A DNA stretch of 63,856 nucleotides, counting the filler, from Platydemus manokwari (taxonomy: Eukaryota): NCBI GenBank assembly GCA_037951405.1. It is 6 parts of 6 records of this genome, joined end to end, with 100 filler letters (N's around TTAATTAATTAA, not from the genome) between each part and the next. Parts side by side here need not be neighbours in the genome. Positions count along the whole stretch, not along the records: positions 21,997 to 32,263 come from JBBMOY011151549.1; 5 more parts are not named here. The stretch is one strand, 5' to 3'. The translations under genes were made by a program, and so were the position numbers. This document shows positions 18,940 to 63,856 of the stretch, piece after piece (position 1 is the stretch's first letter; each line of letters starts with the position of its first letter). The notes under the pieces are model-generated. The model had not been told where the DNA came from. It made no database searches and worked only from the letters and a program-made list of their open reading frames with translations.

Positions 18940-20453
18940 TTATTTGTGTCTTTTCAAATGCCTAATGTACAAATCTATTTTACTACACCCAACATCACAA
19001 ACTGGACAATGATAATGATCGGCTTTTTTCAAATTGCAAAACAATCGTGCACATGTACCGAATTTATATAAATGCTTTTCTTCATCTTTGATATTCAACA
19101 CAACCGAATTTTCGATCTCATCCAAAACAATGGATTCTTGGAATTTCTGTTTTTTGGACGATGGATAATTAACTGTGGGGAAACCATTATTGTTATCTAA
19201 AGATTCGTTATTCAAATCTATAAATTGATTGTCGCAAGATCCCGACGATATGGGCGACAACTGACTCGGTAAATCTCTAATCGATAGAAAGCTGGTAAAC
19301 GTTTCTGGATTTTCTGTCACCACTCGTGACCGTTTGAGTGACGTTCCGTTTCGATTACTGTTACCATTCGCTCTTTTGAGCACTATGTTGCAATGAACGG
19401 ATTCTACATGGGCTAATCTATGAAGATTGGATAGATGTGATGATACAAATTCACAATTATTATATGAGCAATGGTAATGACTTTTTGCTTCTTCATAGTT
19501 GCACTTCAGGCATAATTTGAATTCTAAATTGGTCAATTCTTCTGCAACACTGTGACGTTTTCCATGTTGTCTCAATTGATCTTTGCCTTTCATCACTTCC
19601 AAACAATTCCCATTCTCTGCAAAACAATGATAGTGGTCCTTGTAAAGCATATGACACCGTGAATTACAGACATCGTTGGCAGTAAATCGTTTAACTTGTG
19701 TCGAAAAAAACTCATCGAAATCAAATGACTTTGGTTTCCAGAGTCGTTTCGGTAACGATTTTGGAATTAAATGTTGCTTTTTGGAAAGATCGAGCGGTTC
19801 ATTCTGAAGTGAAACTGATGGAGTTATGGTAGACAGTGGAGGGTTGGAGAGTAGAAATTTGATCAAATCCAAAATAACATCTAAAAAATTGGAAATCAAT
19901 AAAATAAATCATAATGGGATAAAATTATCCATTTTGTAAATCTAATTTTAATTAAAATTGTAAATCTATAATATAAATTTTATCTTCAATTAACTTTATG
20001 AGCTTTGTTTTCTGAAAGATTTAAGGAATTATTTTATTCATTTCTCAAGTAAGAATTTTAAAGTTCAAGGAAAATTTTATGAGTGGATATTTTACTGATT
20101 TAAAGATTTTTATGCGTATAAAATTTATGTTGAACAAAATAATCATTAATTAATTTATTTATTAAATATCGATTTAATAATATTTTATAATTTTTTAATT
20201 AAATAAAATAATAATTAAATAATCAATAAAATGGTTAAATTTATAAATATATCACGTGGTGACATTCACATTATTACCAAGAGTTAGTTTAATTCTCGAA
20301 ACATTTCTTACTTGAATTATTGATATTTCCTCCCACTGTATCTGTTGTTGTCGATATAATTTTATTCAAACCATTTTCGATCTGATTCAATTGATCATTT
20401 TGTTGGGTTTTGTCCAAATTACCATTCTCACAAAGCTTGACAATATTTTCCAT
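18940..20453 (-). CDS. Castor (CASZ1)-type zinc-finger protein, ~360 aa; exons 20453-20312 and 19880-18940
   Basis: ATG at 20453 with an upstream in-frame stop. Phase-1 GT/AG junction joins in frame to the 319-aa ORF. Three castor-type units (C..C...HYHC..C...H...H) and an EPLDLSKK motif. Confidence 0.82.
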
Positions 20454-21996: not shown

Positions 21997-22075
21997 TAAC
22001 TATAAGCCATAAGAAAGATAGTTATTAAAATTTTCATTTCAAATAGCGAATTAGCTATTGAATTAGAAATCCTAC

Positions 22076-25000
22076 CCGAGGCCAGCATTTCGTTTTATTG
22101 GTATTATCGGAATCAATATCATTGTCGTATTGTCTCCACGTGTAATACACACTGCCCAACATTCCATTGATGAAAACAATATCGAAATCTTTGAAATGTG
22201 AAACAGATCTACAATCGATTTTTCCAATAATTGAAATTGAAAAACCACCAATTTACTTCTGATGATCTAGCAGGAAAATGTCTGGTGTGAATATGGTGAC
22301 CTGATTTGGAAGATCTTTCTTTAATTGTGATATGTTTGATATTACTTTGACAACGTTAAGATTGAGAACAATATTGTCATTAACAACCCACGATTTGAGC
22401 AATTTATTCACATCTGAAATATATTATATTGGTATATCAAAAATATAAAACATTATAATCTTCAAAATATATATTTAACAATGATATTTACAATGTTGAA
22501 GTAATTAGATCGAAATATGGAAACAATGAAAATAAAATCTTTATTCTTTTGGCTAATTCTTATAAATATAATTATTATATTTTGTCGAAAACCATATCTT
22601 ATTATTACTTATCGATTATGCACCCCCGCGAGATTCAATCCGTTCAACGGAAACTACGGTTAAAAAAAATATTTTCCCAACATTGATGAAGATGAAATAA
22701 TTATTTGCGTTCAATTTTTAATGAATTTTCATAAAAAGAACCTCGATAGGTAATCGCCATTGGTAATATAATCTAATCCGTAAACACGAACATGGGGTCA
22801 ATTAAGCCATAAAGCTTCAACAATAATCAAAGATAATATAGTTAATGTCATTCGAAATATATAAAATTAAATATGAAGATGACTTCCACCAATTTTGTCA
22901 TTTTTATACACCGAATTTGGATCTAGGTATCAGAACTGAAATGATACAAGTATGAATCCGATCGACTGACTTTAATAAATCTCACACCACTGGTAAATAA
23001 TTAATAAAACAATGTCTATCGATCTGTGACGGATATTATTAGTATTCATTCTATAAATAGTGATTGCGCAATAAAGCAATATCAAGAAAAGGTTAATTCA
23101 AGTGTCCATATTCTAATACAGATGATTTCGATATCAAATAAGATTTCAAAATTCAAAAAGGCCAGATGCTAGAAGAATCCTTCAACATTAATTAAACCTT
23201 GAAATGTTAATCATTGAGTGAATGAATCCAAATAAATAAAGTGACAGAGTTAAGACTAAATAACAAAAAAACCCATAAAATAAATAGATTATAATAACTA
23301 TTTGATAATTGGGAATGGTGAAAAATCTTTTAGGATCAAACAAAATTACCATCAAGCGGATTCATTTTAAATTTTACAAGGTAATAAATCCATGGATTGA
23401 CAGTTCTTTATCGAATAATTGTTATGGTGATAAGAAACCCCACAGATCATGGGTGAATAAAAAGTGATTCATTGATTGATTTGCTTCTAATTAATGTTCT
23501 CAGTGTTCTGAATCCATATCAATATGCGATATTAAACGAGTTCAATTGAATCTACCACCGATATTCTCACGACAATCGACGATATTTTCTAATAAACGGT
23601 AACTAATTATAACCCGGAAATACAAAAGACAGTCGAGAATATTTTATGTGCTTATGACGATGTGTGGTGTGTTTATTTCCTGCATATTCCAATAATCACG
23701 AATGACGACTATGTTGATCGACAAATAATTCAACTGAAAAATTATTTATGTGAAACTCACAATGTAATTTAAAATCTAAATCAATCGTTTGCGAATTTCG
23801 AAAGCACAAATTCTCAATCTATTCCAGATATTTTCATTCTGATAAATTACTCGAGTTTCCTTCTTTGTTGAGAGATTTCCCAATTCATTAATTCTAATGA
23901 TCAAAAATAAAAACAATGCTAACGCTATAATTGTTGACGTCACGGAAAATATAATAATTAAATTGGGAACAAATTATTTATCGATTATTTATTTCTCGAA
24001 ACCTAAAACTTCTATATTGGATATATTTGGCATATTTATTTATCAAATTGAGAAATCATCTCTGCCCGACTGGAGGAATGATAATTGACAATCGTAAGCC
24101 AATAAATCATTCATTAATGAAAATATGTCGTTGGGGTTTCAGATATAATAAATCAGATAATAATAATTATTATCAATATATTCACTTTTGCCAATAGATA
24201 ATCTCTCCAAAAATTCTTTTCTCGTCAATCAAAATGAATCAAGAATTCCTCAATCAAATATAGCTTCATTGTCAAGAGAAACATTATCTATACGTTTAAT
24301 AATATCGACCATCACATAGATTGCACTATCCTCTTTATTGGACGTTATATTATAATCAATAATTGAAAGAGAAAATTAAATTGTGAAGATACACAGATAT
24401 TCATGTATTGTTCGAGAAATTTTTCATTATTCTACACTATTTTCAATCCTTTACAAAGATTACAATCCAACATCATCATATCTAAATTCGATATGTTGAT
24501 AAATTATCCGATTCAATCAATAGAATATCAGAAAATATCCCCTTGAATATATTTTTTGTCTATAATTGTTCTAACAGTATTAATTTATTATGTTAACTAT
24601 TTCATTTTAGAGTTCATTGAAAGCCACAAAAGTATTATCATTTCAATCGATATTGAAAACTTGTATATTCATATTTATGTGTGACCTTGTCAATAACAGT
24701 GGGTAATAATCAATAATTAATTCACAATGAATAAAATATATTTCATATCTTGTCATCATAAAATTGGGAGAAACTTGAACTATCAGATTTATGGGTTTTT
24801 TATTGATCTATTTGAACAAGAACAATCAATATAGATATTTTCAAAAATATTTTATATAAAAATTTATTTGTATGTCAAATTGATACGAAAAAAAATATTA
24901 TTTAATTTGTTAATATTTCAATATAAATTGTGTATTATCAAAGTGAAAAATAAAATCATTAAATATCGAAAAAATTAATGAAATAATAATAATGACTATC

Positions 25001-26884
25001 ATTATTATTAAAAAATATTACACTAAAAATGTAAACATTTCATACCCAACATAAACAAAATTGGAATTATATTGATTCCAGATTTTAAACACGATTTTAT
25101 TGATTTACCATGGTAACAGTCCGATTATGGTGAATAATCTAATATCGTTGGCAACTAGAATGTTACAATGGATACGCTTTTAAGTTTAAAAATGATCACG
25201 TAGTGGTGGATTCAAATCAATCAAAGAATAACGCGCTAAATTCTGATATTTATAAATAAGAAATGCTACAGAGCAGTCCGATGAAGATTTGAAGGACTTG
25301 GTATTTAAAATAGAAAATCGATATTAAATGCTGCAATAAACGACTACCGGTAATTGAATGTTATGAATATTGAATAAATTTAAACTTCTAAAAACATATT
25401 GATATCCGAGAATATAAAATTCCTACCTAATACACTGATCAACCTGCATTTCATCTATTTATAAGATCTTAAAATATTAAATTATATCAATGAAGAGCTC
25501 ATTGCATTAAAAGATAGTGTGTCATTTACAAAACATTTTTAATTGACCTCAAATATCAAGTATCACCGTTTATTTTTAATTAATTTATTGATTTTTCATG
25601 AAATACATCAAGAATCTTATTAGAGCTCAGAATATATTTCTTTAAATAATTAACACAAATCAGCTGGTATTGGATTCCTTCACGAAATCAAATATCTCTA
25701 ATTTTCGGAAATTTTCAACAGAATTCACAGAAATCACAGAAATAACCCAAAACTACAATACAAAATCTACAGTGGAAATAATATGTCCAATAATTGGAGT
25801 GAATAATGATATCTACTTATTGGGTTCACATTCTAAATATAAAACTGCCATTGAAAATGAATTTATTAATCTATTATATTTTCAAATGTTACGGTAAATA
25901 TTTTATCAAAGAGATTATATAAATCACATAAAATTATTATGACATGGTTAAGAAAATAGCATAAAATTGATATCAACTCATTTTGTGAATATGATATAAA
26001 ACGTTCACTAATCCAGTTGAAGGACATTAAAATGTATATAAAGAGTAATGAGATCTTAGTCTTTTATTATTTGTTTATTAAATGCGTATAAATAATCGTC
26101 GATTTAATAAAAATATCTCATCAATTCTAATCGATATTTCTGTACTTATTTTTGAATTCGTTTTCAAAGGGGACACATTGATTTTGCGCGTTAATGAGGA
26201 AATCTTAAGATGATGAATCGGTTTTGTACTGCTATATTCATCAATATCGAGTAAGGACTTCGAGTCTAATATTTAATGTTTCATCACACTGACTATCACT
26301 CACAACTTATCCGTGAATACCTGGTGTAATTGCGCTTTGGCTACACACATCATAAAAAATCAATTCAGAAAATTCTATATTAAATAAATCAATAAAGGAA
26401 CACAATTAAAAAACCAGGCATTAATTAATTCAAATAAATACTACAGATTTATTAACATTTACAAAAATATTTATCTACCACAACTATAAATTCATTATAA
26501 TAATAATAATATAGCTGGCTTACATTCATTCTGAATCAGTTCTAATGATTCTTTCTTCTGAGAAATGTTTGCTAGAACCTCACTTAATGTCATGCTTGCA
26601 TCATCTGTCAACAGTGCATCAAAACCATAATACAAAATTAGATCTTGAAGCATAGATAAACCATTCTGTGAAACGAATTTACCCAGAAATAGTTCGTTCT
26701 TAAATCGATAATATGTTATCCCGTGGATTATTAATGTAAATAAGTTTACTTTTGTGTGAGCTGATAAATTGTTCAATGTTTCCTCGACATTCTTTCGAAA
26801 ATTTACTTTTCTATTATTTAATTTATCTAACAGAGTAAAAGAAATAGACTTTTTGAGAGTTTCTCTGGGATTTATGAGATTTAT
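22076..26884 (-). CDS. SERAC1: SERAC1 (serine active site-containing 1, alpha/beta hydrolase), internal exons 26884-26750, 26698-26524, 22413-22257, 22208-22076
   Basis: In-frame spliced product ...SQNGLSMLQDL...VLANIS...VISNIS...PDIFLL...FDIVFINGMLGSVYYTWRQYD...KCWPR follows the human motif order GGLQLLQ...ILANL...[20 protein letters not shown]...CWPK. Introns of 51, ~4100 and 48 nt, all GT-AG. Confidence 0.88.
23770..24360 (-). pseudogene. Decayed single-pass membrane protein, possibly cadherin-like, inside the SERAC1 intron
   Basis: One frame over ~195 codons with 7 stops: ...DNVSLDNEAIFD*...SIGKSEYIDN...IYYI*NPNDIFSL...NLIIIFSVTSTIIALALFLFLIIR (TM-like)... Confidence 0.35.
25104..25117. 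promoter_or_regulatory. RFX X-box-like palindrome
   Basis: GTTACCATGGTAAA on the - strand (13/14 to GTTNCCATGGNAAC), with a GGCAAC half-site ~35 bp downstream. Confidence 0.4.
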
Positions 26885-28984
26885 CTAGAAAAGAAGGTCG
26901 ATACATTATATGTATATATGATGAGCATAGTGATTATCGGTGTTAGATGATAATATAAGATGTAATGTAACAAATAATTCCTATAATAAACTGTCATAAA
27001 AATATTTTAAAAACATCTATCAAACCATCTTTTATGTGTTATAATCAATTACAGTACACAACGGTTAGTGAGTGAATCTTCAAATATTAAGACAAATTAT
27101 TCAATACCTGCTACTGGGAAAAAATATGTTTAAAAAGTATTGGACAAAAAAGTACACCACTGTTTATTGTCACACAATCAATGTTCCATAATATAATCTA
27201 GACAAAGAGTTTTTTTTGCTTTTGCTCAATACAGTTAATATAGTATTATGAACAGGATTATAGTTACATTTATGGTTTATCATAATCTTCACGTTCATTT
27301 AGATATTTTTTAAAGCTGATTTTGGTATTATTCAATATTCGTATCATATATAGTTGTTTGGTGTTTTCAGCCATTTCATTCTCGAAACATTTGTGACCGA
27401 TCAAAATAATATATAATAATTCCAACACAATTTTATAAATAAATTCAATTTGACAACGAAAATATATGCACCGATATTAATAATAAATCGCTTAATGAAA
27501 CATTCTACTCATAATTAACTTAAATCACTTATATTGTTCTCACAATCAGCTTATTTTAGTATATTCATTGGTGTAAAATTAAACCTTCGAAAAGAATATA
27601 CTATATTGCGTTACTTTGTATATTCTTAGTCATATAATAATCCACAGAATCAAACACAACAGTGAATATTTCATGGATTTTCTCTCATTATATCATTGAT
27701 TATACCAATCCAATATTTTCCATATTAATTAATAACGGTTATCGTGTTCAATACGAGATCGAACATCGAATCCAGTTATCTGCTTAGCTGTGAGATTTTA
27801 CCAGACACTTATATTACGAATATCCAGTGGGAAATGCTCATTTTTATGAAATACCTTTGGTAGAATAATAAAAGAAAATAAATTATAGGAAACCAGTAAC
27901 ACCTGTCGAAGAGAAAAATAGGAAATGAATCAATATTCTTGTTAGTTAGAATGGATTATAAATAGAAAGAAAATTAGACAGAACTAATAAATGGCCAATA
28001 TCTCAACTATGCTTCTGTAAAATTTTTTAAAAAACCCGATCTTCATTGTCAAATAAAGCCAAGACAATATATTTTTCGTAACTTCAATGTTCTCAATGAT
28101 TTATTGGAAATATCGTTTACATGATCGACAAACATGTATTTCGTAGAAAATTTCAAGTTAATAAAATAAGATACACAAAAGTATATTGAACACAGAAATT
28201 CTGCCATGGAATTGTTACTCCACACAAGTAAAGCTTTTAACGATTAAATCACCTATTTTATTAAATAGAATTAGCCAGCACGCTGTAACGCTGATGAAGG
28301 AGGAGTATAGAGATGTGTTCGAGTTGTTATGAAGCCAATCTTAACATTAATGAAAATAGCGACATTTAGAAAATTAATTTTCAAATCTTAAAATAGGGCT
28401 TATAAATGGGCATCTTATATACTGTTGAATGTAAAATAACATTGAAAAAAAACGAACTTTGGCACCTTAAACCCTTTAAAAATTTACATGCCCATTGACC
28501 AAAATTTTAATTCTATAAAGCACATGATCTTACAATGACGCAAGCCCGTCGATTGACCAATCCCATATCACAAAGATTAAAATTCTAGAAATATAGATCC
28601 CGAAGATCTAGTTAATATTTTGCTTTTGATGATTTCCAAATCTATTCATTGATTGATTTATATTATAAAATTCCGTCGACTTATTAGTATCAAATAGGAT
28701 CTCGAATCCATCATTCCACAATTCATCTATTCGCATATTCGAGCATACCTCATTACACAATTTCATTACATACAAGACTCACTCAAATTCAATTGATTAT
28801 ATTATACTAACAGTTCAATCATCGACATTCGTGAAAAAACACTATAATTTTCAATAAAGAAAAAATTGGAGACATTGTTGTTCATTATTGGAATCATGAT
28901 TTACATTCTATGTTGAAACAGTTGACGAGAAAATACTCAATCTATGAATTGTTTTTTAATATTTCGATGACATTGGAATGTTAT

Positions 28985-29176
28985 TGAATAAATATATTTT
29001 TTTGGAATATAATCACTAAACAGCACATTAATCCAATCGATAACACAGTTTACCTTTAATATTAATGAATAATCTAATGAATATATTTATTTTGAATAAA
29101 TTTTTAAATATAATCACTAAACAGCACATTAATCCAATCGATAACACAACCCACCTTTAATATAAATGAATAATCT
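28985..29176. repeat. Direct tandem duplication, ~100-bp period, 2 copies
   Basis: AATATAATCACTAAACAGCACATTAATCCAATCGATAACACA...CCTTTAATA..AATGAATAATCT occurs twice. Confidence 0.85.
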
Positions 29177-30205
29177 TCATCGGTATAAAATATTCATATA
29201 ATCTATTATTCATTCATTGTTAATTTTAGCATTATTCCCCCACATACTGGTTTTAACTTGTTTCACATTCTCGTGAATAATTTACAATACTTAATTTGAT
29301 CAGAGAATTTGAAAAATAAAATATTTTTTGAAAAATTGCAAATCGGGCGAATAAAATAATGTTCTAATCATTGGAAAATATATAATCAAAGATAATAATG
29401 GTTAATTATTTATTAATTCGTTACTTTTTAAACGAAGGTTCTCTCTAACATGATAAATAAAATTTTCAATTTCATAATATCGATATCATTTAACGAGTCC
29501 AGTTATTTCCACAAACATGAAATCACATGAAACCAATACTATTGAAGAACTTCAAACGGTATAAGGAAATATAAATAATATAAAATCAAATTGTCGGCAC
29601 TATTTAAAATTATCAGTCTGTTTTTTAATCAAATATATAAAACAATATTCACACAGTAGCATAAAAGCATTCGACCATATTCTGACTTGTAATCCACTCA
29701 TTAAATTTATCAAAAAATATATCAATTATCAATATATTTGAATAAAAATCCATTAAATTAAAATATTAATTAAAGTTTTAATTATGTATTTAATAACATT
29801 TTTCTTCAAATATCATTCATTCAAAATTCCTACAGACATTGGCAGCGCATTGTTGATAATGTGGGTGGTGAGAAATTTTGTTGCACATAAATAAAAAGTT
29901 ATGCTAGTACTGAAATAAAAGATGTGTTTTGAAAATCAGATTTTATAATAATATATTTCAACAGTTTTTGTAATAAAATAAATAAATTAGAAAGATACAA
30001 ATTCAACATGGTAATTATTATTAAAGATTATAATAAAATATATTTTGATTAAAGTAATCGGGATATCAAAATGAAAAAAACAATTCATTGCTGATACTAA
30101 TAGATCCTTTACGGTAAAAGAAAGAACCAATTATTAGATTGGCACATAAGCCAATTAAATTTTTAATTAAAATTTAATTAAATTTAACGGATTGTAATTA
30201 TAATA

Positions 30206-30418
30206 CAAGGTGGCCCAAAAATAGGTTTACAGTTATCACGTATTTGAAGTTCGACACTAGAAAAGCGGGAAATTCGTTATATCCGTTAACATAAACAATT
30301 CAGTCTCTCAGATGCTCAAAATAATCTCCTTCAACATTGCAACATCCTTCAAATCTCTCCAGGACATTCCGACACACACACACCTTAATAACTGTAAACC
30401 TACTTGTGGGACACCCTG
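30206..30418 (-). mobile_element. Internally deleted Tc1/mariner-superfamily element (MITE, 213 bp)
   Basis: TA flanks and ~31-bp TIRs (CAAGGTGGCCCAAAAATAGGTTTACAGTTAT / rc CAGGGTGTCCCACAAGTAGGTTTACAGTTAT). Retains the transposase C-terminus VCRNVLERFEGCCNVEGDYFEHLRD*. Confidence 0.88.
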
Positions 30419-31249
30419 TATAATGATAATTCTCATAATTATTGTTAGGCCTTAGCTGACATCATAATTTTATTTACAATATTATATTAAAAGTATTAGC
30501 TAATATTTGAATTAAATTTTTCATTTATTATCACTTAATCCGATCTGAGACTTTATTAAGAAAATTTTCTCAACCTTGAAATTCCTGGAACTTTTCTAAC
30601 TAGAAATAAAACCTCAAACGATAAATAAAATTGCTTTCGTTTCTCAAAATTCTTTATTGGAATATCCAAAGTAATTATTTTTATGAATATTTGTCATTTT
30701 TGATATATTAACTCGCTCCATACCATTGGATGTCTGAACTCTTCAAATGCTACAAACCTGGGCTGCACTTGAATTTTTAGGACTTTTCCCATAATTTCAA
30801 CACTAAAAAATCACTGACCAATCATAAGCAGGTTTTAGCTGCGGGAGAGGGGTTAAATTGAGTGTTCCAGTGCATTTGGAGTTTGGATAAAAACATATCA
30901 ATTTATAGATTATTTTTGTTTTATAGGAAATAAAATAATAAAATTTATCAGCAAAACACTTCCATAATGGATTAGATCGTGAAAAACTCTACTAATGTTG
31001 ACAGTACTGATGAAAATATAAAATTCACATATCTATACATATAGAAGTCCGTATATGTTCATACATAATCAAAATAAGGTAACCTATAGAGCTATTCGAG
31101 TTGAGCATTTATAAACATTGTCAGTGTTTTTTGGTATAAATAATCATATCTTGTTTTAATTGAATCAAATATTTGACCTCATAATATGATATAGATTAAT
31201 ATGATTATTGTTACTCGCTCCGATTTGATATGTTGATAAATAAAACCCG

Positions 31250-31703
31250 CACTTTTAACCTGTTTTAAAAATGGTAAATTTTCATATCTAGTATTTTTTA
31301 CAAAATTATATAAAGTTCTACCTTCATAAGAGGTTAAATGAATGCCAGCTTCTTCAGCATAAGTATTTTCTTGTAATATTTGTTTTTGTTTTGATTTGTT
31401 AACTCTTCTTTTATGTTCTCAGTCTCCACGCTAGTTTTCTTAGATTATTTTGCTTGATTCATTGCAGTTGCAACTCCTACAGCAATACTTCCTGATCCAC
31501 TTAAATACGCCATAATTGCTTGTAATGCACTTAATAACGAAAAAAACCCACCTTCTTTTTGTTTCTTATAGTCTTCTTTATTTACTATCAATTTGATTAA
31601 TTTGTCAATAATTTCTTTAGATATTTTTATTTTTTCCCATCATAGTTAAATGATTTAGGTTTCCCAGTTTTTATAATTTTTTTTTAAGTTTTTCATCATT
31701 CAT
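31250..31703 (-). pseudogene. Polinton/adintovirus pX-like (GGF-motif) small virion protein, disrupted
   Basis: MNDEKLKK/IIKTGKPKSF...YKKQKEGGFFSLLSALQAIMAYLSGSGSIAVGVATAMNQAK*: a basic N-terminus, a GGF site and an amphipathic Gly/Ala helix. Starts 30 nt after the capsid stop. Confidence 0.65.
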
Positions 31704-31732
31704 TTTTAAAAAAATAAAATTTAAAGAACTCA

Positions 31733-32263
31733 TTAGTTCCGGATTGAAACCATCTTGACACTCTTAATTGATATTTCAGCAGCTTTTTCTTCTAATATAC
31801 AAGAATAACCGTCACATTTAAATCAGGATCTTTTTCAATTTTTATTGATAAGGTACATTCATTTGTTATTAAGTTCTCATCTTGAGCACTAACATCAAAA
31901 CAAAACATTGAGTATGACCGTTAAGAATTTAAAATATTTAATTGAGGTTTCTTTCCAAATTCTTTATATAAATAAGCTAAATAAGGTTTTATTTGGTTAT
32001 TATTTGTGATATCAAATTGCATTTTATTCATTGGATAATTAGAGTTATTTAATTTTACTCTCAATGATTTAATTTTGTTATTACAAATTATCTCAACAAA
32101 TTTCGAGTCATTTTTATTATAACTAATATCAGATACTTTGAATCATACTAGTATATATTGGGGTCTATTTTTTAATAAACCTACTTACCAATTATATGTT
32201 GATCCCTTTAGAATACTAACAAAATTTAATAATCTATTTAAATAATTCACTTGAATGGGTTTA
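31733..32263 (-). pseudogene. Polinton/Maverick (adintovirus-like) major capsid protein, C-terminal part, disrupted
   Basis: ...TYNW*VGLLKNRPQYILV*FK...IKSLRVKLNNSNYPMNKMQFDITNN...PYLAY...YSMFCFDVSAQDENL...LSIKIE...GYSCILEEK... matches the recalled Polinton PY capsid pattern (KPRYIIVGFQ, V.LN..YP, PLFVFDVS.Q.E). Three stops and one frameshift; truncated by the contig end. Confidence 0.75.
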
Positions 32264-32363
32264 NNNNNNNNNNNNNNNNNNNNNNNNNNNNNNNNNNNNN
32301 NNNNNNNTTAATTAATTAANNNNNNNNNNNNNNNNNNNNNNNNNNNNNNNNNNNNNNNNNNNN
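32264..32363. other. Artificial contig-joining spacer
   Basis: 44N-TTAATTAATTAA-44N. Confidence 0.97.
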
Positions 32364-41720: not shown

Positions 41721-41935
41721 ATATTTCTATAAATAGATCCCCCGTGGGAGACTTTTTATATATAACAATTCTTATATAAAAATTTGTTTATATTTTTTAG
41801 AATCATATTTCTATAAATAGATTCCCCCGCGGGAGACTTTTTCTATATAATAATTCTTATATAAAAATTTGTTTATATTTTTTAGAATCTTATTTCTTTA
41901 AATAGATTCCCCCGCGGGAGACTTTTTCATATAAT
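41721..41935. repeat. Tandem array, 84-85-bp unit, ~2.5 copies, with GC palindromic core
   Basis: Units start at 41721, 41805 and 41890. Each has AAATAGAT(T/C)CCCCG(C/T)GGGAGACTTTTT. Confidence 0.9.
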
Positions 41936-42004
41936 ATTTTTTTTCTTTTTATATAACAATTTCCATAACAATGTTCACATATTTTACTAATTTTTATTTT
42001 TCAG

Positions 42005-42556
42005 ATGAAAAGAACTTTATCCAAACAAGGACGAATTAACACAGCAAAAGGATTTGTGAATATGCTTCATGAAATTCGAAAAAATTTTGTGACTCAAGAA
42101 CATTTGGAACAATATGATTTATATTGTTTAACGAACATACAACAATACCCAAATGTTTTTGATGAAAATTATATAAGTAAGGAAATAGAAAATGTTAAAC
42201 GGGCAAGAAAAGAAGACGAAAGAAGAAAAAAAGAAGAAAATCAAAAGAAAAAAATATTGGAAATAGAAAATTATCTTAAGAAAAATATATTGGAATACCC
42301 CAACAATGAATCAGAAAATTTTAAGGAAATATTTTCGGAAAACAATGAAAAAACACTAAATATTTTAAAAAAAGTTTTGGATAGAGAAAAAATATTGACC
42401 TCTTCCAAAATTACAAACAAAATTTATATGGGGGAACTGCTTTTCCAATTAAAATCCCAAAACCATTTTGAGGATATTCAAGATTTTTTTATTTTATTTG
42501 AAATAGGCAAGTCCGAAGTTTATTTTTCAATAAATTTAATGAAATTATCTCTCTAA
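42005..42556 (+). CDS. 183-aa Lys/Glu-rich intronless ORF, probably a Polinton/virus accessory gene; possibly prematurely stopped
   Basis: ATG directly after TTTTTATTTTTCAG. Strongly A-rich coding strand. C-terminus MGELLFQLK...GKSEVYFSINLMKLSL*YPKL continues past the stop. Confidence 0.55.
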   Translation: MKRTLSKQGRINTAKGFVNMLHEIRKNFVTQEHLEQYDLYCLTNIQQYPNVFDENYISKEIENVKRARKEDERRKKEENQKKKILEIENYLKKNILEYPNNESENFKEIFSENNEKTLNILKKVLDREKILTSSKITNKIYMGELLFQLKSQNHFEDIQDFFILFEIGKSEVYFSINLMKLSL

Positions 42557-49679: not shown

Positions 49680-51900
49680 TGTAAAACATAAATAGCGACA
49701 CTAGTTGCTAAAAATAGACACGAAACCTAAAAATAGTAACATATGCTAAAAATAGTAACATATGCAACTAAGCGTAGAATGACACCAAAAATAGCAACAA
49801 GATGCATGACTCACAATAATACACAAAATAGTATAAAAGCAGAGAACAACAAGCAAATATCGCACTTCGACTAACCAAAATTACGACTCGTTATAAAATT
49901 GTAGGAAAATTTTGACGAAGCTCAAATCTGAAGCTATTTTATTCATATTTTAATTTTATTGTATGCTAATTTTGATCCTCAAATTTTGAAGAATTTTATT
50001 ATACATTCTACGAGTAATTTTATTATCTGTTAAACTAAATTCCGACCCACGACTAGTCTTGGCCTTGTGGTCTATTAAAATTTATAACTTCCACTTAAAG
50101 TTCCCTACCTTCATTTTTGTCACAAGAGGCTTACCCGAGCACCTAAGCGGTACGCCCTTTACTGTTTTCTTGACTACACTCTTTGATCCCACAATAGCAA
50201 ACACCACCTTTAGTATTTTAAATTCATTGTACTCAGATTATTAATTTTTATTTATCAATGCGGTTCCATTTGTTGTGTTTTGCTTTTATTCATTATATTT
50301 TATTTGATCATTATATACTTTTAAATACTTAATAAAGTAAAATTTATTATATAACATAATAGGCTTCAATTTGCTGAGATCCGAGCAGTCATAGGAAGGC
50401 AGGTTTCATGACCTAAGGCAATATCTTTTCTAAGCTCAGGCTGGTCCAATCAAGAGGTTAGAGCGCTGACACTAGATGAGATTTTTTTATTAAATTAAAC
50501 GTGCGATAAAGCGACAACAACCTTTTATCTATTTAGAGTCCAAATAAGTTGAAGATTTTTGAGAGAATATAGTTATTTTGTTTAAATCCTTCTGATAATC
50601 AATACAGTATCAGTCACATCTTTTTACAAATTTACATTTGTAATTTGAATTTAAAATTACTATAAAACCATCTCGACAATCTTTAACAAATGGTTATTTC
50701 TTAAATCTATTTTTTGTAAACAATTTTTCGTAAACAAATTTGAATAATATAATAATTATTTATGGGGAAGAGTCGAATACCCACTCATTCGAAAATAAAA
50801 TGAAAATCTCCAATTGATATCGGAGATTTCTCTCCAATAAAAAGTTCTTTAAAAAACCATTGCAATTTAACGAAAATTTGGAAAACAATGACATGAAATT
50901 GAATCAAATTCCTGAAACAAAAATCTTAACGAAAATTAAACTTATTGAATAAGATCAATACCCTTCCAAAATCATCGATTAAACCTGGTCAGAGTTATGC
51001 ATCTTCTCGTAAACATCTATCTGAAGAGACTTTTCTGCTTTTATTAAATTTGAATTGAATGTAATAAACAAACGGTTTTAAATAAATCTGAAAATCCTGT
51101 AAATATTTAGCCTAACTATCGGCACATCAACAATATTGAATTATTCAAACCTAAAGAAAAATTGGAAACAAATGGAAAAAAAGTTCGTTATTTACGACAT
51201 GAATTTCAATATTTTCGCTTTCCATATGAAAAACCTAATGAAAAATCTAAAATGCCATCAAATGATCTAATCTGTAATTCCCTTGTGCTCTCTTATTTAT
51301 GAGCAAAAATAGATTAATTTTTAATGAAAATTCTCCCCATGATATATTCTAAATCACGTTTCAATATTCAATTATGGATTACTACCTAAACAACTATCTT
51401 AATTTTGATTACGAGATCCCCCCGCAATCCATAATCCGATGTCTTTTCTCAAATTTTTCTGAATTCAGCAATGCAAATAATATCATTGATATGTCAAAAA
51501 GAAATAACTTTCTCAACCAGCAATTGAATATCATATTAAAATCAAAAATAATGGAAAAACAATAATCGCAATTGTGGCTACACATTAAAAGAATTAATCA
51601 AGATAAACCATAATTAGTTGACTCAATTATCAATCGATGATGACCTATTTCGAGGAAGTAGACGACTTAAGTAATAATAACCTCACCGTGATCAACAAAC
51701 CTCAAGAGATTTATTTGAAAGATAGAAATAGAAAATACGAGTAACCATCTGTTACAGAGCAAGATCAAGCTTAACAATATCATCTTTATCTTCGGCATAT
51801 ACAACACCATCTTTATCTTCAGCATATCAGAAAATCAAACCCCAATCGTCTCAATCAACCTACTATCAAAGCTTACAATCCAGGTGGAAGGTCGACATGG
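49680..51900 (+). mobile_element. LTR (~49680-50356) with downstream decayed internal, possibly gag-like, sequence
   Basis: Homologous to solo LTR 13093-13687. TATAAAA 49832, AATAAA 50331, ends TAACA at 50356. Broken A/C-rich reading frames follow at ~50760-51900. Confidence 0.6.
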
Positions 51901-54040
51901 ACGAATGACAAATATTTGACTATATTTTACTTTTTGTGATTAATCTGACTCTTAACTTTTTGTGATTCTTGCACGATTTTGATTTATTAGTATCGATTTA
52001 TGTGTAAAGAAATTTTGAAATTGTTAATAAAAACAATAAACATTTTTAAAACTACAAAATATATATTTTTAAATAATATGTAACAAATTATTATGAGAAA
52101 TAATAATAATAAAACCATGAAAAAATAAATAAAATAAATAAAAAGGAAATAACTTTTTGACGAGATAATAAATAATAAAATAATTTCCATAAATAATAAT
52201 ATACATTATAATTTTGGGTAAAAATTAGTTAATTAAAATATGGGCGTATTTGTGGGCGAAAATTGGAATTTTAAATGTATGAGAAAAAGGAAAAACTCAA
52301 AAATAATACGAATAAAAAATAAATTAAAATTATTAATCTAGGCGAATTTATAAAATAATTTTAAAATCCAATAGGAAAAAAGAAAATATTAAACAAAAAC
52401 GATTATTCAGAATCCGTCCTAGAAAATACTATATAAGGAATGGCAAAATCACAAATTTCACCCTCAAAAACCCATAATATTACTAGACAATCTTGAAAGG
52501 ATTCAATAAAGGCATAAACGTTTAGACGTTAGATAAAAAAGGGATAAATTGAAATACCAAAAAGGTGTGATTTACCATTTGATAAAAGAAATAAATATCA
52601 TTATAGGGCCCATATTATAAAATCTACATTAATATAAAAATCATATATCAACGCAAAGGAGGTTCGGTATCTTGTGGAAAAATCTATCTTAATCTGTGCG
52701 TTGTGAAAATTTGAAATATTGTTAGTTTGTTTGAACAATTTAAAGTTAAAGGGATTTTTTAATACTTTAATTTTTGTAAATTTGTAGAACATAAATCACA
52801 ATTGTGTTTATTTAGTGTATTATTTGATTATAATCATAAGAGCACATACCTACGGGATTGACATTGTGCTTCAACCAGTAGTATCGAACTCCCAGATATA
52901 TAGTTATATTAAAAGGACCCTATAAACCTAACGGATCCATCGAATCGTTTAAGTATGCCCTCATACGTAGAGAATTATGAGGATACGAGACTTATTAAGT
53001 GAAGAATATCTAAAAGAACGCTGTTTAAAATCAAATAAGTAGTGCAGAAAATGTTAACTAAATATTATCTCAAGAAATTGCATAAACTCGAAACAAATTA
53101 TCATGAAGAACAAGTCCAATCCACAAAGGCATTAATCTACAATAAATAGATCGCACCAAAACAAAGCATTCTTGGCAATGAATTTATCAATCTCAGTTCC
53201 GCTTATCACAACTTAGAAGTGTAAAACAGAGGAATATCAACAAGTAATTGCTCTGCCAATCATGCATCAACCGTTTACAGTACAAATGGAATTGATGCAG
53301 CCCAAAAATACACATTTCGATAATTCTCTACACTTGGAAAGACGACTTGGATTAATTTGTTATTAATTTCAATAAAATCGGGATTTGCATTTCAAGTCAT
53401 TAAAAGGCTTTCCATGTTAAAGAAAGTTTATATTAAATCAATTATTTGATACATTAAATAGATCTCTGCCACAAAACAGTTGATATACTATCAAGGTACA
53501 AAAGGTTGAAAACTGACTACAAGGACCATAGTACACTTCCATAAGGTACCGGGTCACTTAGAAGAACCATGGTTTATCCAAGAACAATAAGAACACTCCC
53601 AGAAGCGAAGTTCAGAGTCGAAAACTTATAGCCAAAGCACCATTCCTGAAGAAACTATCAAAGAAGAAAACAAATCATACTACAATTAAATATTGATCTT
53701 AGAATGTACCCAATCCTATAAATAATAATAATACCACCCATGACACTCCTCAACAATGAATCACAGCCATTCAGTTTACAAAGACACAATAGAACAGTTC
53801 TTGCAGAGCAACAAATGCAATAATACAGTCTAGTAGCAATTAAGTAACTTTTGTATAAAAACTTTGAAAATTATTCTTATGAATATTGCTTGTAAAAATA
53901 TCTGATCGCATTCAAGTCCTGTATATGTGCTTCAATTTTGAAGAATGGCACTGTACTTTTATGTCTAAGTGGAATACAAACAAACCTAGGTAAATAAATA
54001 CATAATTACATCAAAAATGTTTCTCGGGGAATAGAAAAAT

Positions 54041-60607: not shown

Positions 60608-61141
60608 CATTTTAAAAGCCCATTATTAATTGGATTGATCAATAAATACTGTTAAACACAACCCTTCTACTTAAAAAAAATACGAATTGAAAACACGTCT
60701 AAGTATTTCAACACACAAATGTATATTTAATCAAAATATTTAAACAAATGACATTGATCATTTATATATTTTGAAATAAATATATTTTAAATTTAAAATT
60801 ATCAATTAAATATTAATTGATTTTAAAATTGTCATATTCGATCAATGAATAACAATTAAAATAGCCATTTCAGCTGATTGTGAATAGAAAACAAAAAACC
60901 AGATTTTCGCGAAAACCAATTATTATTTTATACGTTTTCGAATGGTCTTGGAAGAAACTTTGATCCATAAAATAAAAATTTAGATTGTTTTTATCTCTCA
61001 ATTAATTAAATTCATTCTGTGTCATCTTACGACAGAGATTTCGTTGAAATACAAAAGTAAAACAAGAAAATCAAATTTGGTTAGATAAAATTTGATCGAC
61101 GGTTGATCGATAATATGAATAAAAATCTATTATTAAATTAC

Positions 61142-63779
61142 CTAATAATTCGCTCAGCCCCCGTCCGGCAGAATAGAAATAGATCAGAACGCACAGTACA
61201 ATTAGAAATATGATGAATACCACAGCAGCGAGACAATATAGAATTATTATGTAATTGGAATTGTAGGGTTTGATTTTCGAATCTTCACCATAACCTTTAT
61301 CTGGTGATTTCTTCGATGCTTTACTGTCACCGTTGAGATACGTGTTCACATAGCCTTTTGTCGGTAAAATATAGCGCAAAATCAAACTACCAACTTCCGA
61401 TTGTGGTGTTTCTTCACTTTGATCTGAAGCTCGAACTAATATTCGATCAGATTGAGTGATTCGAAGACCTCTTGATTTGATTGATTCTCTCAAAATCACA
61501 CGACCATCTCTTTCAACGGTAACAGGACTAAGGGACTCATTTCCAACTAATTCAAACACCACGCTGCCATTCAATCCAAAATCATGATCGACTGCTTCAA
61601 GTTTGGCGAGTAAAAATCCGATTTCGCTGTCACTGCTGATATTAACATAACTACCGCTTGCACTTGATGGAAACAAGAATACGGGTTTATGATCGTTCAG
61701 ATCCATCAATGTTACTGTTACTGTTGTTAGGCTAGTCAAAGGAGGTTTCCCATGATCTCGAGCAACGATATCAATGAAAATCGTACTTTGTTCTTCACGA
61801 TCTAGAACACCGTAAAGAGAGAGTTTGCCGTTTTTACTAATCTGGGCATTAAACTTTTTAGTTTTTTCCACTTCAGGATTGTCAATATATGGGCTGGTTG
61901 CACCAATCGAATACCAAACAAGACCATTTTCGTCCAAATCATCATCAGTAGCCTCTATGAATCCGAGGTGACTATGAATTGCCATGTGGCCATAGCTTTC
62001 AACAACATTAAAGTGATAATTTTTCTTGAAATTCGGTTTGCAATCGTTTTCATCGTGGATTTTCACTCGAACAGACGACGAAGAGGATTTTGGATGATCA
62101 CCATTGTCTGCAGCTGTCACCGTAAAATTATACATGCTTCTCACTTCTCGATCGAATTTATCCTTTGAATATATAACCCCATATATGTTTATGGAGAAGA
62201 ATTTGTTCCCAATTTCGTCAAGGTAAAATTTAATTTTAGAATTTTCCTGAGAATCCTTATCGGGAGCTGACACTGTTCCGATTTCTGAACTACCGATCGA
62301 ATTCTCCATAATTTCAAATTCATAAAGCGACTTGGTAAAGATTGGTGGATTGTCGTTTTCATCTAGAATAATGACGCTGAATTCTTGGTAGCTCGTCAAT
62401 TGTGGGGAACCTTTGTCAATGCAAATGATTTGTACGGAATAATAATCAACCTTTTCCCTATCAAATGACTGTTTCCCATTCGTTTGGATTTGATATATCG
62501 TCACCATTCCCCGTTTGGGTTTTTCGTTTTTGGTTGATAAAGACCGGCTCATTACCTCTTTCAAATGTAAGTAAGTAGTATCATTCAAGTGGCAGGTAAA
62601 TTCACAATTCAATTCTAAATCCTCATCTTTCACTGTCAACAATGTCAGTATTTCCAGACCACGTTTGTTTTCTTTGATTTTTGCTGATCGACTGGTGATG
62701 GAAATTTGCGGTGCATTGTCGTTGCAATCGGTAATGGTTATTATGAGATCGGTCGTGTTTTGTAATCCACCTCCATCGACGACTTTAAGTGGAACGACTA
62801 GCTTTGATTCAGCCATTCCTTTCATAGCTCCATCAATCAATATGATATTGTTGCTCGATATATACAACAACCGTGATAGCTTCCTTGAGTTTCCAAATTT
62901 CGCCGAGTCGATTTTGAAATCTAATTTACTATTTAGAGTATTCGAATCGTCCGCATCGATCGCTTTGAGGTTGAATATTTCTCTGGTTGTCGTACATTCT
63001 TTGATTGTCAATTCATATGGTAATCCAATCCATTGTGGGCTGTTATCATTGATATCTTTGATATTGAGAATGATATTTACATGACCTCTCTTTCCTTCCG
63101 TATCTATAGCAACCAATGTGAAGCTGTATTTGTCTCTCAATTCGCGATCAAGCTTTTTATAGACAATTAATTGTGGCTGGATGATTTTCAATTCATTATC
63201 TTTGATTATTTTAAATTGAAAATGGCTTTCAAATTTTTCATTCACCGTTTCAGATGATTTGAAAACATTTTCAATAATATAATTATAAATTCCGAATTTC
63301 TGGCTATCTAAATCTGATGCTACTGGCAAATCAATTATATAACCAACTTGGACGTCTTCTAAAACGGATAGTTCGATTTCCTGTTTAGAAAACGTCGGTA
63401 CTTCATCATTCATATCAATTATAGAAAATGTCAACTCGAAAATATAGCTATTGTATGAAATAATTATTATGTGTGAGCAGTCATTTTCTTTTTGTTGGCA
63501 TAATTCCTCTCTATCGACAGAAGAAATGAGATGTAATGACCCTGTAGCGGAATTAAGTTGAATTAAGTTACGTAACCGAGTATTGCCAGAAATGATTGTG
63601 AATCTGTGTTTGGTTTCGTTTAAATAAGGGGGTAATTTATCCCTCAGATTTATCAATGCCGAATGAACCTGATCGTTTTCTTTCAATTGAATTTCGATAG
63701 AATTCGACGATTTTTCAGTTCGAGTAAATAAGATTCCAAAATTCAGAACGATTATTATGACAATAGATTTACAGTGAAT
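61142..63779 (-). CDS. Protocadherin, 7 extracellular cadherin repeats + TM in one large exon; candidate next exon 60341-60268
   Basis: Six DxND(N/E/C/H)xP linkers, repeated (L/F/V)DRE and AxDxG motifs, EC1 DREELC...C motif, TM IIILYCLAAVVFIIFLIVLCVLIYFY. Hydrophobic signal-like segment upstream of the annotated TTG. Likely CAG acceptor before 63779 and G|GTAATT donor after 61142. Confidence 0.93.
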
Positions 63780-63795
63780 CTGAATATTTAATGAA

Positions 63796-63801
63796 TTATT
63801 A

Positions 63802-63856
<55 letters not shown>
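63796..63856. repeat. (ATT)n trinucleotide microsatellite
   Basis: Near-perfect ATT repeat running to the window edge. Confidence 0.95.

What the first reader, a model, noticed from the sequence alone, without database searches (positions are those of the whole stretch)
31250..32263. Endogenous Polinton/adintovirus-like structural module (major capsid + pX-like GGF gene) not shown in the ORF track
Seen: on the - strand, a mostly single-frame ~175-codon stretch with RPQYILV*F, VKLNNSNYP and MFCFDVSAQDE motifs, followed 30 nt later by a basic protein containing KEGGFFSLLSALQAIMAYLSGSGSIAVGVATA. Both lack introns and are tightly packed. Established: Polintons/adintoviruses encode a double-jelly-roll capsid and small proteins with protease-cleaved GGF sites and amphipathic helices. 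Inference: this is a decayed integrated dsDNA virus, which would imply a capsid-encoding Polinton lineage in this genome. The rest of the element is cut off by the contig end.
Basis: partly seen in the sequence, partly recalled or inferred. Interest (0 to 1): 0.75.

Follow-up and report, generated by a model that had tools for sequence, protein, structure and literature searches.

The report
Decayed Polinton virus capsid fragment
This is a broken 1-kb piece of a Polinton-type virus (half of its capsid gene plus a small adenovirus-protein-X-like gene) lying in what is likely an invertebrate animal genome, likely one of many related copies; such viral fossils are common, although its closest intact relatives are unnamed and arrange two accessory genes unusually.

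Summary
Observation confirmed. Minus-strand 32,262-31,735 is the C-terminal jelly roll of a Polinton-type double-jelly-roll major capsid protein: 70 relatives at E<=1e-3, best 6e-35; 24 of 27 tested match Pfam DJR-like; predicted folds match DJR capsids. About 30 nt later starts a pX-like gene matching a profile of 8 relatives (iE 4e-7, above all shuffles); 7 of those 8 hit Pfam Adeno_PX. Both genes carry stops and frameshifts. Metagenome relatives link this capsid to packaging ATPase, protease-like, pPolB and rve integrase genes; none is found in this contig. Corrections: only the upstream side is lost to the contig end; downstream the element stops inside the contig near 31,200-31,260; the GG site lacks the adenoviral M/L at P4. 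One run holds many related sequences. Verdict: a dead fragment of an endogenous Polinton/adintovirus, a known kind. Mild novelty lies in the relatives: stand-alone pX and a PLA2-integrase fusion. Host phylum is unresolved.

The parts
31735..32263 (-). C-terminal part (second jelly roll; profile positions ~240-417 of 418) of a Polinton-type double-jelly-roll major capsid gene; pseudogene with 4 in-frame stops and a frame change near 31,810; N-terminal part lost at the contig end
31281..31703 (-). pX-like (adenovirus protein X/mu precursor-like) gene: basic N-part, GG motif at ~31,550, hydrophobic segment, charged tail; pseudogene in three frames with several stops
31704..31732 (.). about 29-nt spacer between the capsid stop and the next ATG
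31180..31280 (.). approximate downstream edge of the element: summed contig depth in run X1 falls from thousands to 16 across this zone; no terminal repeat found
32264..32363 (.). N-spacer joining two contigs; the upstream part of the element is not in the window

Best explanation
This is a dead, two-gene fragment (capsid C-terminal half plus a pX-like gene) of a Polinton/adintovirus-type DNA virus that was likely inserted by its own integrase into an animal chromosome and has since decayed, likely as one of many related copies. Shown: the two homologies, the stops and frameshifts, the lack of other core genes in the contig, and that intact relatives carry this capsid beside ATPase, protease-like, pPolB and rve integrase genes. 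Inferred from established Polinton biology: the parent element replicated with a protein-primed polymerase, integrated through the rve integrase, and could build icosahedral particles from capsid trimers filled by the A32-type ATPase. Inferred by analogy with adenovirus: the pX-like protein is a core precursor whose basic N-part binds the genome and which the viral cysteine protease would cut after the conserved GG, freeing a hydrophobic segment. This copy makes no full-length product; its downstream part was likely removed by a deletion or rearrangement.
For: Capsid: 70 proteins at E<=1e-3 among 1.84 billion, best 5.9e-35 at 45% identity, mostly aligning to the C-terminal part of ~410-480-aa proteins or fragments; 24 of 27 tested pass the Pfam PF21738 cut-off; window fragment scores 158.8 bits on a profile without it, best of 927 reported shuffles 7.6. 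Model of relative P0004 (pLDDT 87.6) matches iridovirus, PBCV-1, mavirus and Sputnik capsids at E ~1e-13; the Atlas places relative P0074 with DJR-like eukaryotic clusters, TM 0.87. Model of the window fragment (pLDDT 82.4): top 12 VIA-align rows are all DJR capsid-type proteins, Z 8.7-6.2; top Foldseek rows PBCV-1 capsid, E 3e-4. pX: 27.0 bits against best of 996 reported shuffles 12.5; 7 of 8 relatives hit Adeno_PX at E<=0.05, 2 of 8 above the cut-off; best PDB hit of their profile is an adenovirus pX, E 0.01. A pX-like gene adjoins the capsid gene in 11 of 31 related loci, 7 directly downstream on the same strand as here (8 of the 11 built the profile). Core genes in relatives: Pox_A32 ATPase (L001, L016, L021), PF03175 polymerase (L004), rve (L001); L021 alone holds capsid, pX, ATPase, penton-like, protease-like and polymerase genes. 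Multi-copy hint: in run X1 the flank has depth 12-53 outside a MITE, the element 379-44,756 summed, with up to 73 contigs carrying another letter at one place.
Against: No pPolB, integrase, ATPase, protease, penton, TIR or TSD is seen in this contig, and no whole genome was available, so membership rests on relatives 35-50% identical. The window fragment alone hits no Pfam or PHROG family. Fold Z-scores of 8-9 for a half capsid are only middling by the tool's own note, and that model leans on an alignment of relatives. The pX match is short and below the Pfam cut-off in 6 of 8 relatives. X1 may be the sample the window came from, its depths are no copy number, and no listed contig bridges the flank-element junction. 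Cleavage, DNA binding and particle formation are untested; P4 does not fit the adenoviral consensus.
Confidence: 0.9

Rival explanations
1. The fragment comes from a non-integrating Polinton-like virus, virophage or giant virus that was endogenised by accident, not from a self-integrating Polinton.
For: Best structural hits are giant-virus and virophage capsids; no integrase or pPolB is attached to this copy.
Against: Those hits are only 7-15% identical; the close sequence relatives (42-46%) L001, L002 and L003 carry an rve-type integrase next to the capsid gene, and L004 and L021 a Polinton-type polymerase. Many related sequences in X1 fit self-amplification.
Confidence: 0.05
2. The viral stretch is not chromosomal: it is a contaminant or free virus mis-joined to host sequence at a contig end.
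For: It lies at the very end of a contig; some related contigs in X1 have far higher depth than the flank; no listed X1 record bridges the junction.
Against: Stops and frameshifts in both genes do not fit a replicating virus; the X1 record identical to part of the element (31,308-31,581) has depth 19.4, like identical flank records (9.8 and 16); GC is 25% against 27% in the flank.
Confidence: 0.03
3. A host-domesticated capsid-derived or membrane-peptide gene with a current function.
For: The 64-codon stretch holding the GG motif and hydrophobic segment is free of stops.
Against: It has no in-frame start before the motif and is one of three pieces in different frames; the proline invariant in 8 of 8 relatives is lost; the capsid frame has 4 stops.
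Confidence: 0.02

Closest known systems
Polintons/Mavericks = adintoviruses (Polintoviricetes, Orthopolintovirales); major capsid PY/Hexon, Pfam PF21738
   Same: DJR capsid of ~410-460 aa in relatives; neighbours A32 ATPase, cysteine-protease-like, penton-like, pPolB, rve integrase, the core set named in PMC4028283, PMC8502044, PMC8097293 (passages/sections). Degraded copies are the rule in animal genomes (PMC8097293; PMC8502044 section 3.3).
   Different: This copy is a 1-kb pseudogenised fragment. Its nearest capsids are unnamed environmental sequences, only ~20-29% identical to the relatives that fit PF21738 best.
Adintovirus PLA2X (Alpha module) and GasderminX (Beta module) genes (PMC8502044 section 3.2)
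   Same: A pX-like domain in a small gene of the virion module; a parvovirus-type PLA2 domain is present in relatives (PF08398).
   Different: The 8 relatives' pX genes (167-222 aa) show no PLA2 or gasdermin Pfam hit; PLA2 is instead in one ORF with the integrase in L001 and in the same frame, one stop apart, in L003.
Adenovirus protein X (mu precursor), Pfam PF05829
   Same: Basic stretch, GG, then a hydrophobic segment.
   Different: About twice as long; P4 is K/H/S/E/R, not M/L as in the adenoviral consensus (PMC7998265 passages); the capsid is a ~430-aa simple DJR, not a ~900-aa hexon (size recalled).
Planarian/flatworm Polintons
   Same: Polintons are reported as piRNA-silenced elements in Schmidtea mediterranea (PMC8532177 passages) and Orthopolintovirales insertions in flatworms (10.1101/2025.04.19.649669 passages).
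   Different: The host here is not shown to be a flatworm, and no sequence comparison with those elements could be made.

Membership tests
Polinton/adintovirus | Double-jelly-roll major capsid (PY/Hexon) | tested here: met
   (C-terminal half only in this copy)
Polinton/adintovirus | Protein-primed family B polymerase | tested here: inconclusive
   Not in the window, but the copy is a fragment cut by a contig end; present beside homologous capsids in 2 of 31 loci, L004 and L021, most loci being too short
Polinton/adintovirus | Retrovirus-like (rve) integrase | tested here: inconclusive
   Not in the window; in 4 of 31 loci, L001, L002, L003, L013
Polinton/adintovirus | A32/FtsK packaging ATPase | tested here: inconclusive
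   Not in the window; in 6 of 31 loci (4 built the profile), Pfam Pox_A32 in 3 of 3 tested
Polinton/adintovirus | Adenain-like cysteine protease and penton (minor capsid) | tested here: inconclusive
   Not in this contig. Relatives hold a conserved ~150-aa gene with H, D, Q, C columns (Peptidase_C5 only E 0.046 in L004) and a conserved ~255-aa gene called penton-like by size and position only (no Pfam hit)
Polinton/adintovirus | Terminal inverted repeats and 6-bp target-site duplication | tested here: inconclusive
   None found in contig 21,997-32,263 (end motifs recalled), but neither natural end of the element is present
Polinton/adintovirus | pX-like domain in the virion module | tested here: met
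   one search is a lead only (score 0.85)
Adintovirus Alpha (PLA2X) or Beta (GasderminX) virion module | pX-like domain fused behind PLA2 or a gasdermin C-terminal domain | tested here: not met
   0 of 8 relatives' pX genes hit PLA2 or gasdermin families in Pfam; the window gene aligns from near its start with these stand-alone genes; L018 has a ~100-aa extension of no known family; no HHpred run
Adintovirus Alpha versus Beta | Polymerase class | tested here: inconclusive
   L004 polymerase matches PF03175 weakly (41 bits), the partial L021 one not at E<=0.05; they are 35% identical. This leans to the divergent (Beta/group 1) class, but no reference sequences were compared
Adenovirus protein X | M/L-X-G-G protease consensus | tested here: not met
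   P4 is K in the window and K/H/S/E/R in 8 of 8 relatives; GG itself is invariant
Polinton/adintovirus | Expression, piRNA targeting or virion formation | not testable with these tools
   No RNA holder listed; the one laid run is contigs

The most novel reading that the evidence does not exclude
The fragment marks an undescribed, animal-infecting Polinton lineage, so far seen only as unnamed metagenome contigs, whose virion module differs from both adintovirus classes: protein X stands alone and the entry phospholipase A2 rides on the integrase. The lineage is massively amplified in this host, and a young, near-identical subfamily (or free viral DNA) is still present, which would make the host a place to look for real Polinton virions.
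Probability: 0.25. Interest if true: 0.55.

Novelty: new member of a known kind. Interest (0 to 1): 0.27.

Why it matters
By itself little: decayed Polinton copies are widespread in animal genomes. Its use is as a pointer. It ties a capsid clade known here only from unnamed environmental contigs to an animal genome, and run X1 hints at many related copies, some at far higher depth. If an intact, recently active family is confirmed with stand-alone pX and a PLA2-integrase fusion, it would add a third virion-module layout to the PLA2X/GasderminX scheme and give a host in which to seek Polinton particles, which PMC8097293 (2021; passages) says had not been observed.

Tried and rejected
Whole-genome search: no genome held. 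Window fragment against Pfam, PHROGs: no family; PDB sequences: 1 hit, a bacterial effector at E 0.0015 over 84 residues, rejected as chance given; word-index search of longer proteins: 0 of 251 candidates; profile A1 against PDB sequences: 0. Viral-contig scans with P0001, P0074, P0018 and A3: no relative in 4 scans; A1 and A4 were too divergent to scan. 122 further window ORFs of 58 aa or more: 0 Pfam hits at 1e-3. Seven core-gene profiles on the window: none at iE<=1 in the finding's contig; a penton-like hit on another contig (51,641-51,850, iE 0.0036, 14 bits, above 977 reported shuffles) had no tblastn support and is left as inconclusive. No second copy of the element in the window. No RNA holder listed. 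Host phylum: zinc-finger ORF gave 1 unnamed hit (78%), protocadherin 1 unnamed hit (81%) and named hits of 31% or less: animal, phylum unresolved; 'planarian-like' is only a guess from AT-richness. Motif searches in the adintovirus paper's supplement found nothing, but the one file held was cut when stored and may lack the protein sets, so this is uninformative. Searches for a described PLA2-integrase fusion (listings; passages of PMC3671162, PMC11071296, PMC10748475) found none; Repbase and most subscription papers are not covered, and bioRxiv supplements were closed. Earlier scan findings: none. The 195-aa ORF at 41,969 does not match the L004 accessory ORF it resembled by eye (E 34). A language-model look-up of the window's capsid fragment itself is not available; an intact relative was used.

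Full report
Setting. The window is a chain of contigs joined by N-spacers; the finding fills the last 1.1 kb of contig 21,997-32,263. GC is about 26%. Another contig carries a 927-codon protocadherin ORF (Pfam cadherin) whose best hit is an unnamed protein at 81% and whose named hits are animals at 31% or less, so the source is likely an animal; the phylum is unresolved and assumes all contigs come from one organism. No whole genome was held.

Observation. All quoted motifs are present. The capsid motifs share one minus-strand frame from 32,262 with 4 stops in 172 codons against 17.1 expected (P = 1e-4; other frames 8-26). The last ~30 residues continue in another frame to a stop near 31,735 and an ATG follows at 31,703. 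The second gene is in three pieces in three frames.

Gene 1 is a DJR major capsid. Read with X at the stops, it found 70 proteins at E<=1e-3 among 1.84 billion representatives, 24 at 1e-10 or better, best 5.9e-35 and 45% identical. Of 27 hits scanned, 24 pass the cut-off of Pfam PF21738 'double jelly roll-like'. On a profile of 35 hits that excludes the window, the fragment covers positions 241-408 of 418 at 158.8 bits; reversed -1.5, best of 927 reported shuffles 7.6. A model of the 448-aa relative P0004 (pLDDT 87.6) matches iridovirus, PBCV-1, mavirus and Sputnik capsids (E ~1e-13, TM 0.47-0.60) and predicted viral capsids including a MELD virus and adomavirus LO7. The Atlas places relative P0074 with eukaryote-dominated DJR-like clusters (0.98; TM 0.87). 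A model of the window fragment itself (pLDDT 82.4) gave DJR capsid-type proteins in the top 12 of 48,161 chains (Z 8.7-6.2, second barrel) and PBCV-1 capsid first in Foldseek (E 3e-4); these scores are middling and the model rests on relatives' alignment. Against this, the fragment alone hits no Pfam or PHROG family and four viral-contig scans were empty.

Context from relatives. One metagenome scan gave 31 loci. L021 (7.9 kb) holds capsid, pX-like, ATPase, PZ-like, penton-like, protease-like and polymerase genes; L001 (6.7 kb) holds penton-like, PZ-like, ATPase, pX-like, capsid and integrase genes; L004 a 1,403-aa polymerase, protease-like, penton-like and capsid. Pfam confirms Pox_A32 (3 of 3 tested), DNA_pol_B_2 (L004; not the partial L021 one), rve and Phospholip_A2_4 (both in one L001 ORF); 'penton-like', 'protease-like' and 'PZ-like' rest on conservation, size and position, with H/D/Q/C columns in the protease set. 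This is the Polinton/adintovirus core set (PMC4028283 passages; PMC8502044 section 3.1; PMC8097293 passages). In a tree of the capsid C-terminal part (59 of 85 candidates kept, 26 dropped for short cover), the window row is sister to the fragment P0009 (98/92) and next to P0003, P0074, L001 and L002 (83/83, not firm). DNA identity to L001 is 74% over 219 nt.

Gene 2 is pX-like. A profile from 8 relatives finds the window gene as its only significant hit among 852 window pieces (iE 4.4e-7) with two weak collinear pieces either side; 27.0 bits against best of 996 reported shuffles 12.5. Seven of the 8 relatives hit Pfam Adeno_PX at E<=0.05, 2 above the cut-off, and the profile's best PDB hit is an adenovirus pX (E 0.01). 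Such a gene adjoins the capsid gene in 11 of 31 loci: 7 downstream on the same strand, as here, and 4 upstream and divergent, including L001 and L002, so gene order is plastic (8 of the 11 built the profile; many loci are too short to tell). GG is invariant in the 8 relatives, but P4 is K/H/S/E/R rather than M/L of the adenoviral consensus (PMC7998265 passages), and the next 18 residues are hydrophobic (mean 0.54-0.82) with a low moment (0.16-0.25). Cleavage after GG is therefore plausible but inferred.

Extent and state. tblastn of 293 ORFs from the 31 loci gave 22 hits, all in 31,747-32,262; seven core-gene profiles found nothing at iE<=1 in this contig; no terminal repeat or recalled end motif was found. 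So the element is cut by the contig end upstream but ends inside the contig downstream, near 31,200-31,260. One run, X1, holds the stretch and may be the window's own source. Laid at 80% likeness, 1,790 contigs fit 29,000-32,263 (this count includes a MITE at 30,197-30,427); depth is 12-53 in most flank bins and 379-44,756 summed over the element, with up to 73 contigs showing another letter at one place, while records identical to this locus have depth 10-19 both in the flank and inside the element. The tool warns that summed depth is no copy number; I read it as a hint that this is one diverged, single-locus member of a large family, some members of which are much more abundant.

Mechanism. 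Most likely (0.9): a Polinton-type virus integrated through its rve integrase, amplified in the germline, and this copy decayed and lost its downstream genes. In the parent, capsid trimers, penton, ATPase and protease would build and mature a particle, with pX as a DNA-binding core precursor; these steps follow from family knowledge and analogy, not from tests here. Rivals (accidental insertion of another DJR virus, contaminant or mis-join, domestication) total about 0.1.

Comparison and novelty. It works like, and very probably derives from, a Polinton/adintovirus; strict membership of this copy is inconclusive for polymerase, integrase, ATPase, protease, penton and TIR/TSD because they are missing from the fragment. 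Degraded copies are common in animals, Polinton polymerases occur in most invertebrate phyla (PMC10748475 passages), and flatworm cases are published. The only unusual point lies in the relatives: PMC8502044 section 3.2 describes pX fused to PLA2 or a gasdermin domain, whereas here pX stands alone in 8 of 8 tested genes and PLA2 shares a frame with the integrase in L001 (one ORF) and L003 (one stop between). My searches (passages) found no description of that fusion, but Repbase, subscription papers and closed supplements were not seen, and it is not shown for this host's copies. Verdict: real, correctly read by the first stage, a new member of a known kind; interest 0.27.

Noticed in passing
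L001:5191-6513 (-); L003:1562-2356 (+): Zinc finger + parvovirus-type PLA2 + rve integrase in one ORF in L001; the same two domains in one frame with a single stop between them in L003.
   Followed up: partly
window 30,197-30,427: MITE-like element with 40-nt inverted repeats (85% complementary) and thousands-fold summed depth in run X1.
   Followed up: partly
window 41,721-42,556: 85-bp tandem repeat (2.5 copies, with a GC-rich palindromic core) at a contig start, followed by a 195-codon open frame with no Pfam/PHROG family; no blastp match to an L004 accessory ORF.
   Followed up: partly
window 51,000-52,700: Stretch with fragmentary coding character on both strands; weak penton-like profile hit at 51,641-51,850 (iE 0.0036) unsupported by tblastn; possibly a decayed mobile element.
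   Followed up: partly
window 18,940-19,908 (-): 322-codon exon-like ORF with several Cys/His zinc-finger-like motifs; no Pfam hit; one unnamed homolog at 78%.
   Followed up: partly
window 61,071-63,854 (-): 927-codon uninterrupted protocadherin-like ORF, 5 cadherin stretches.
   Followed up: partly
window 29,000-29,176: Two 76-nt direct repeats 101 nt apart, 91% identical.
   Followed up: no
window 26,495-26,884 (-): 129-codon open frame after an AG, possibly a host exon in the same contig as the finding; no Pfam hit.
   Followed up: no
L023:2974-11443: A distant Polinton-like virus with two tandem DJR capsid genes, ATPase, penton-like, protease-like and a tail-fibre-like gene.
   Followed up: no
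L003, L004, L006, L008, L014, L016, L021 next to the capsid gene: A second small gene (60-140 aa, starting MV/PI(I/V)F/L..., ending in a G-x-G-F-like motif) flanks the capsid gene in several relatives; no counterpart found in the window.
   Followed up: partly
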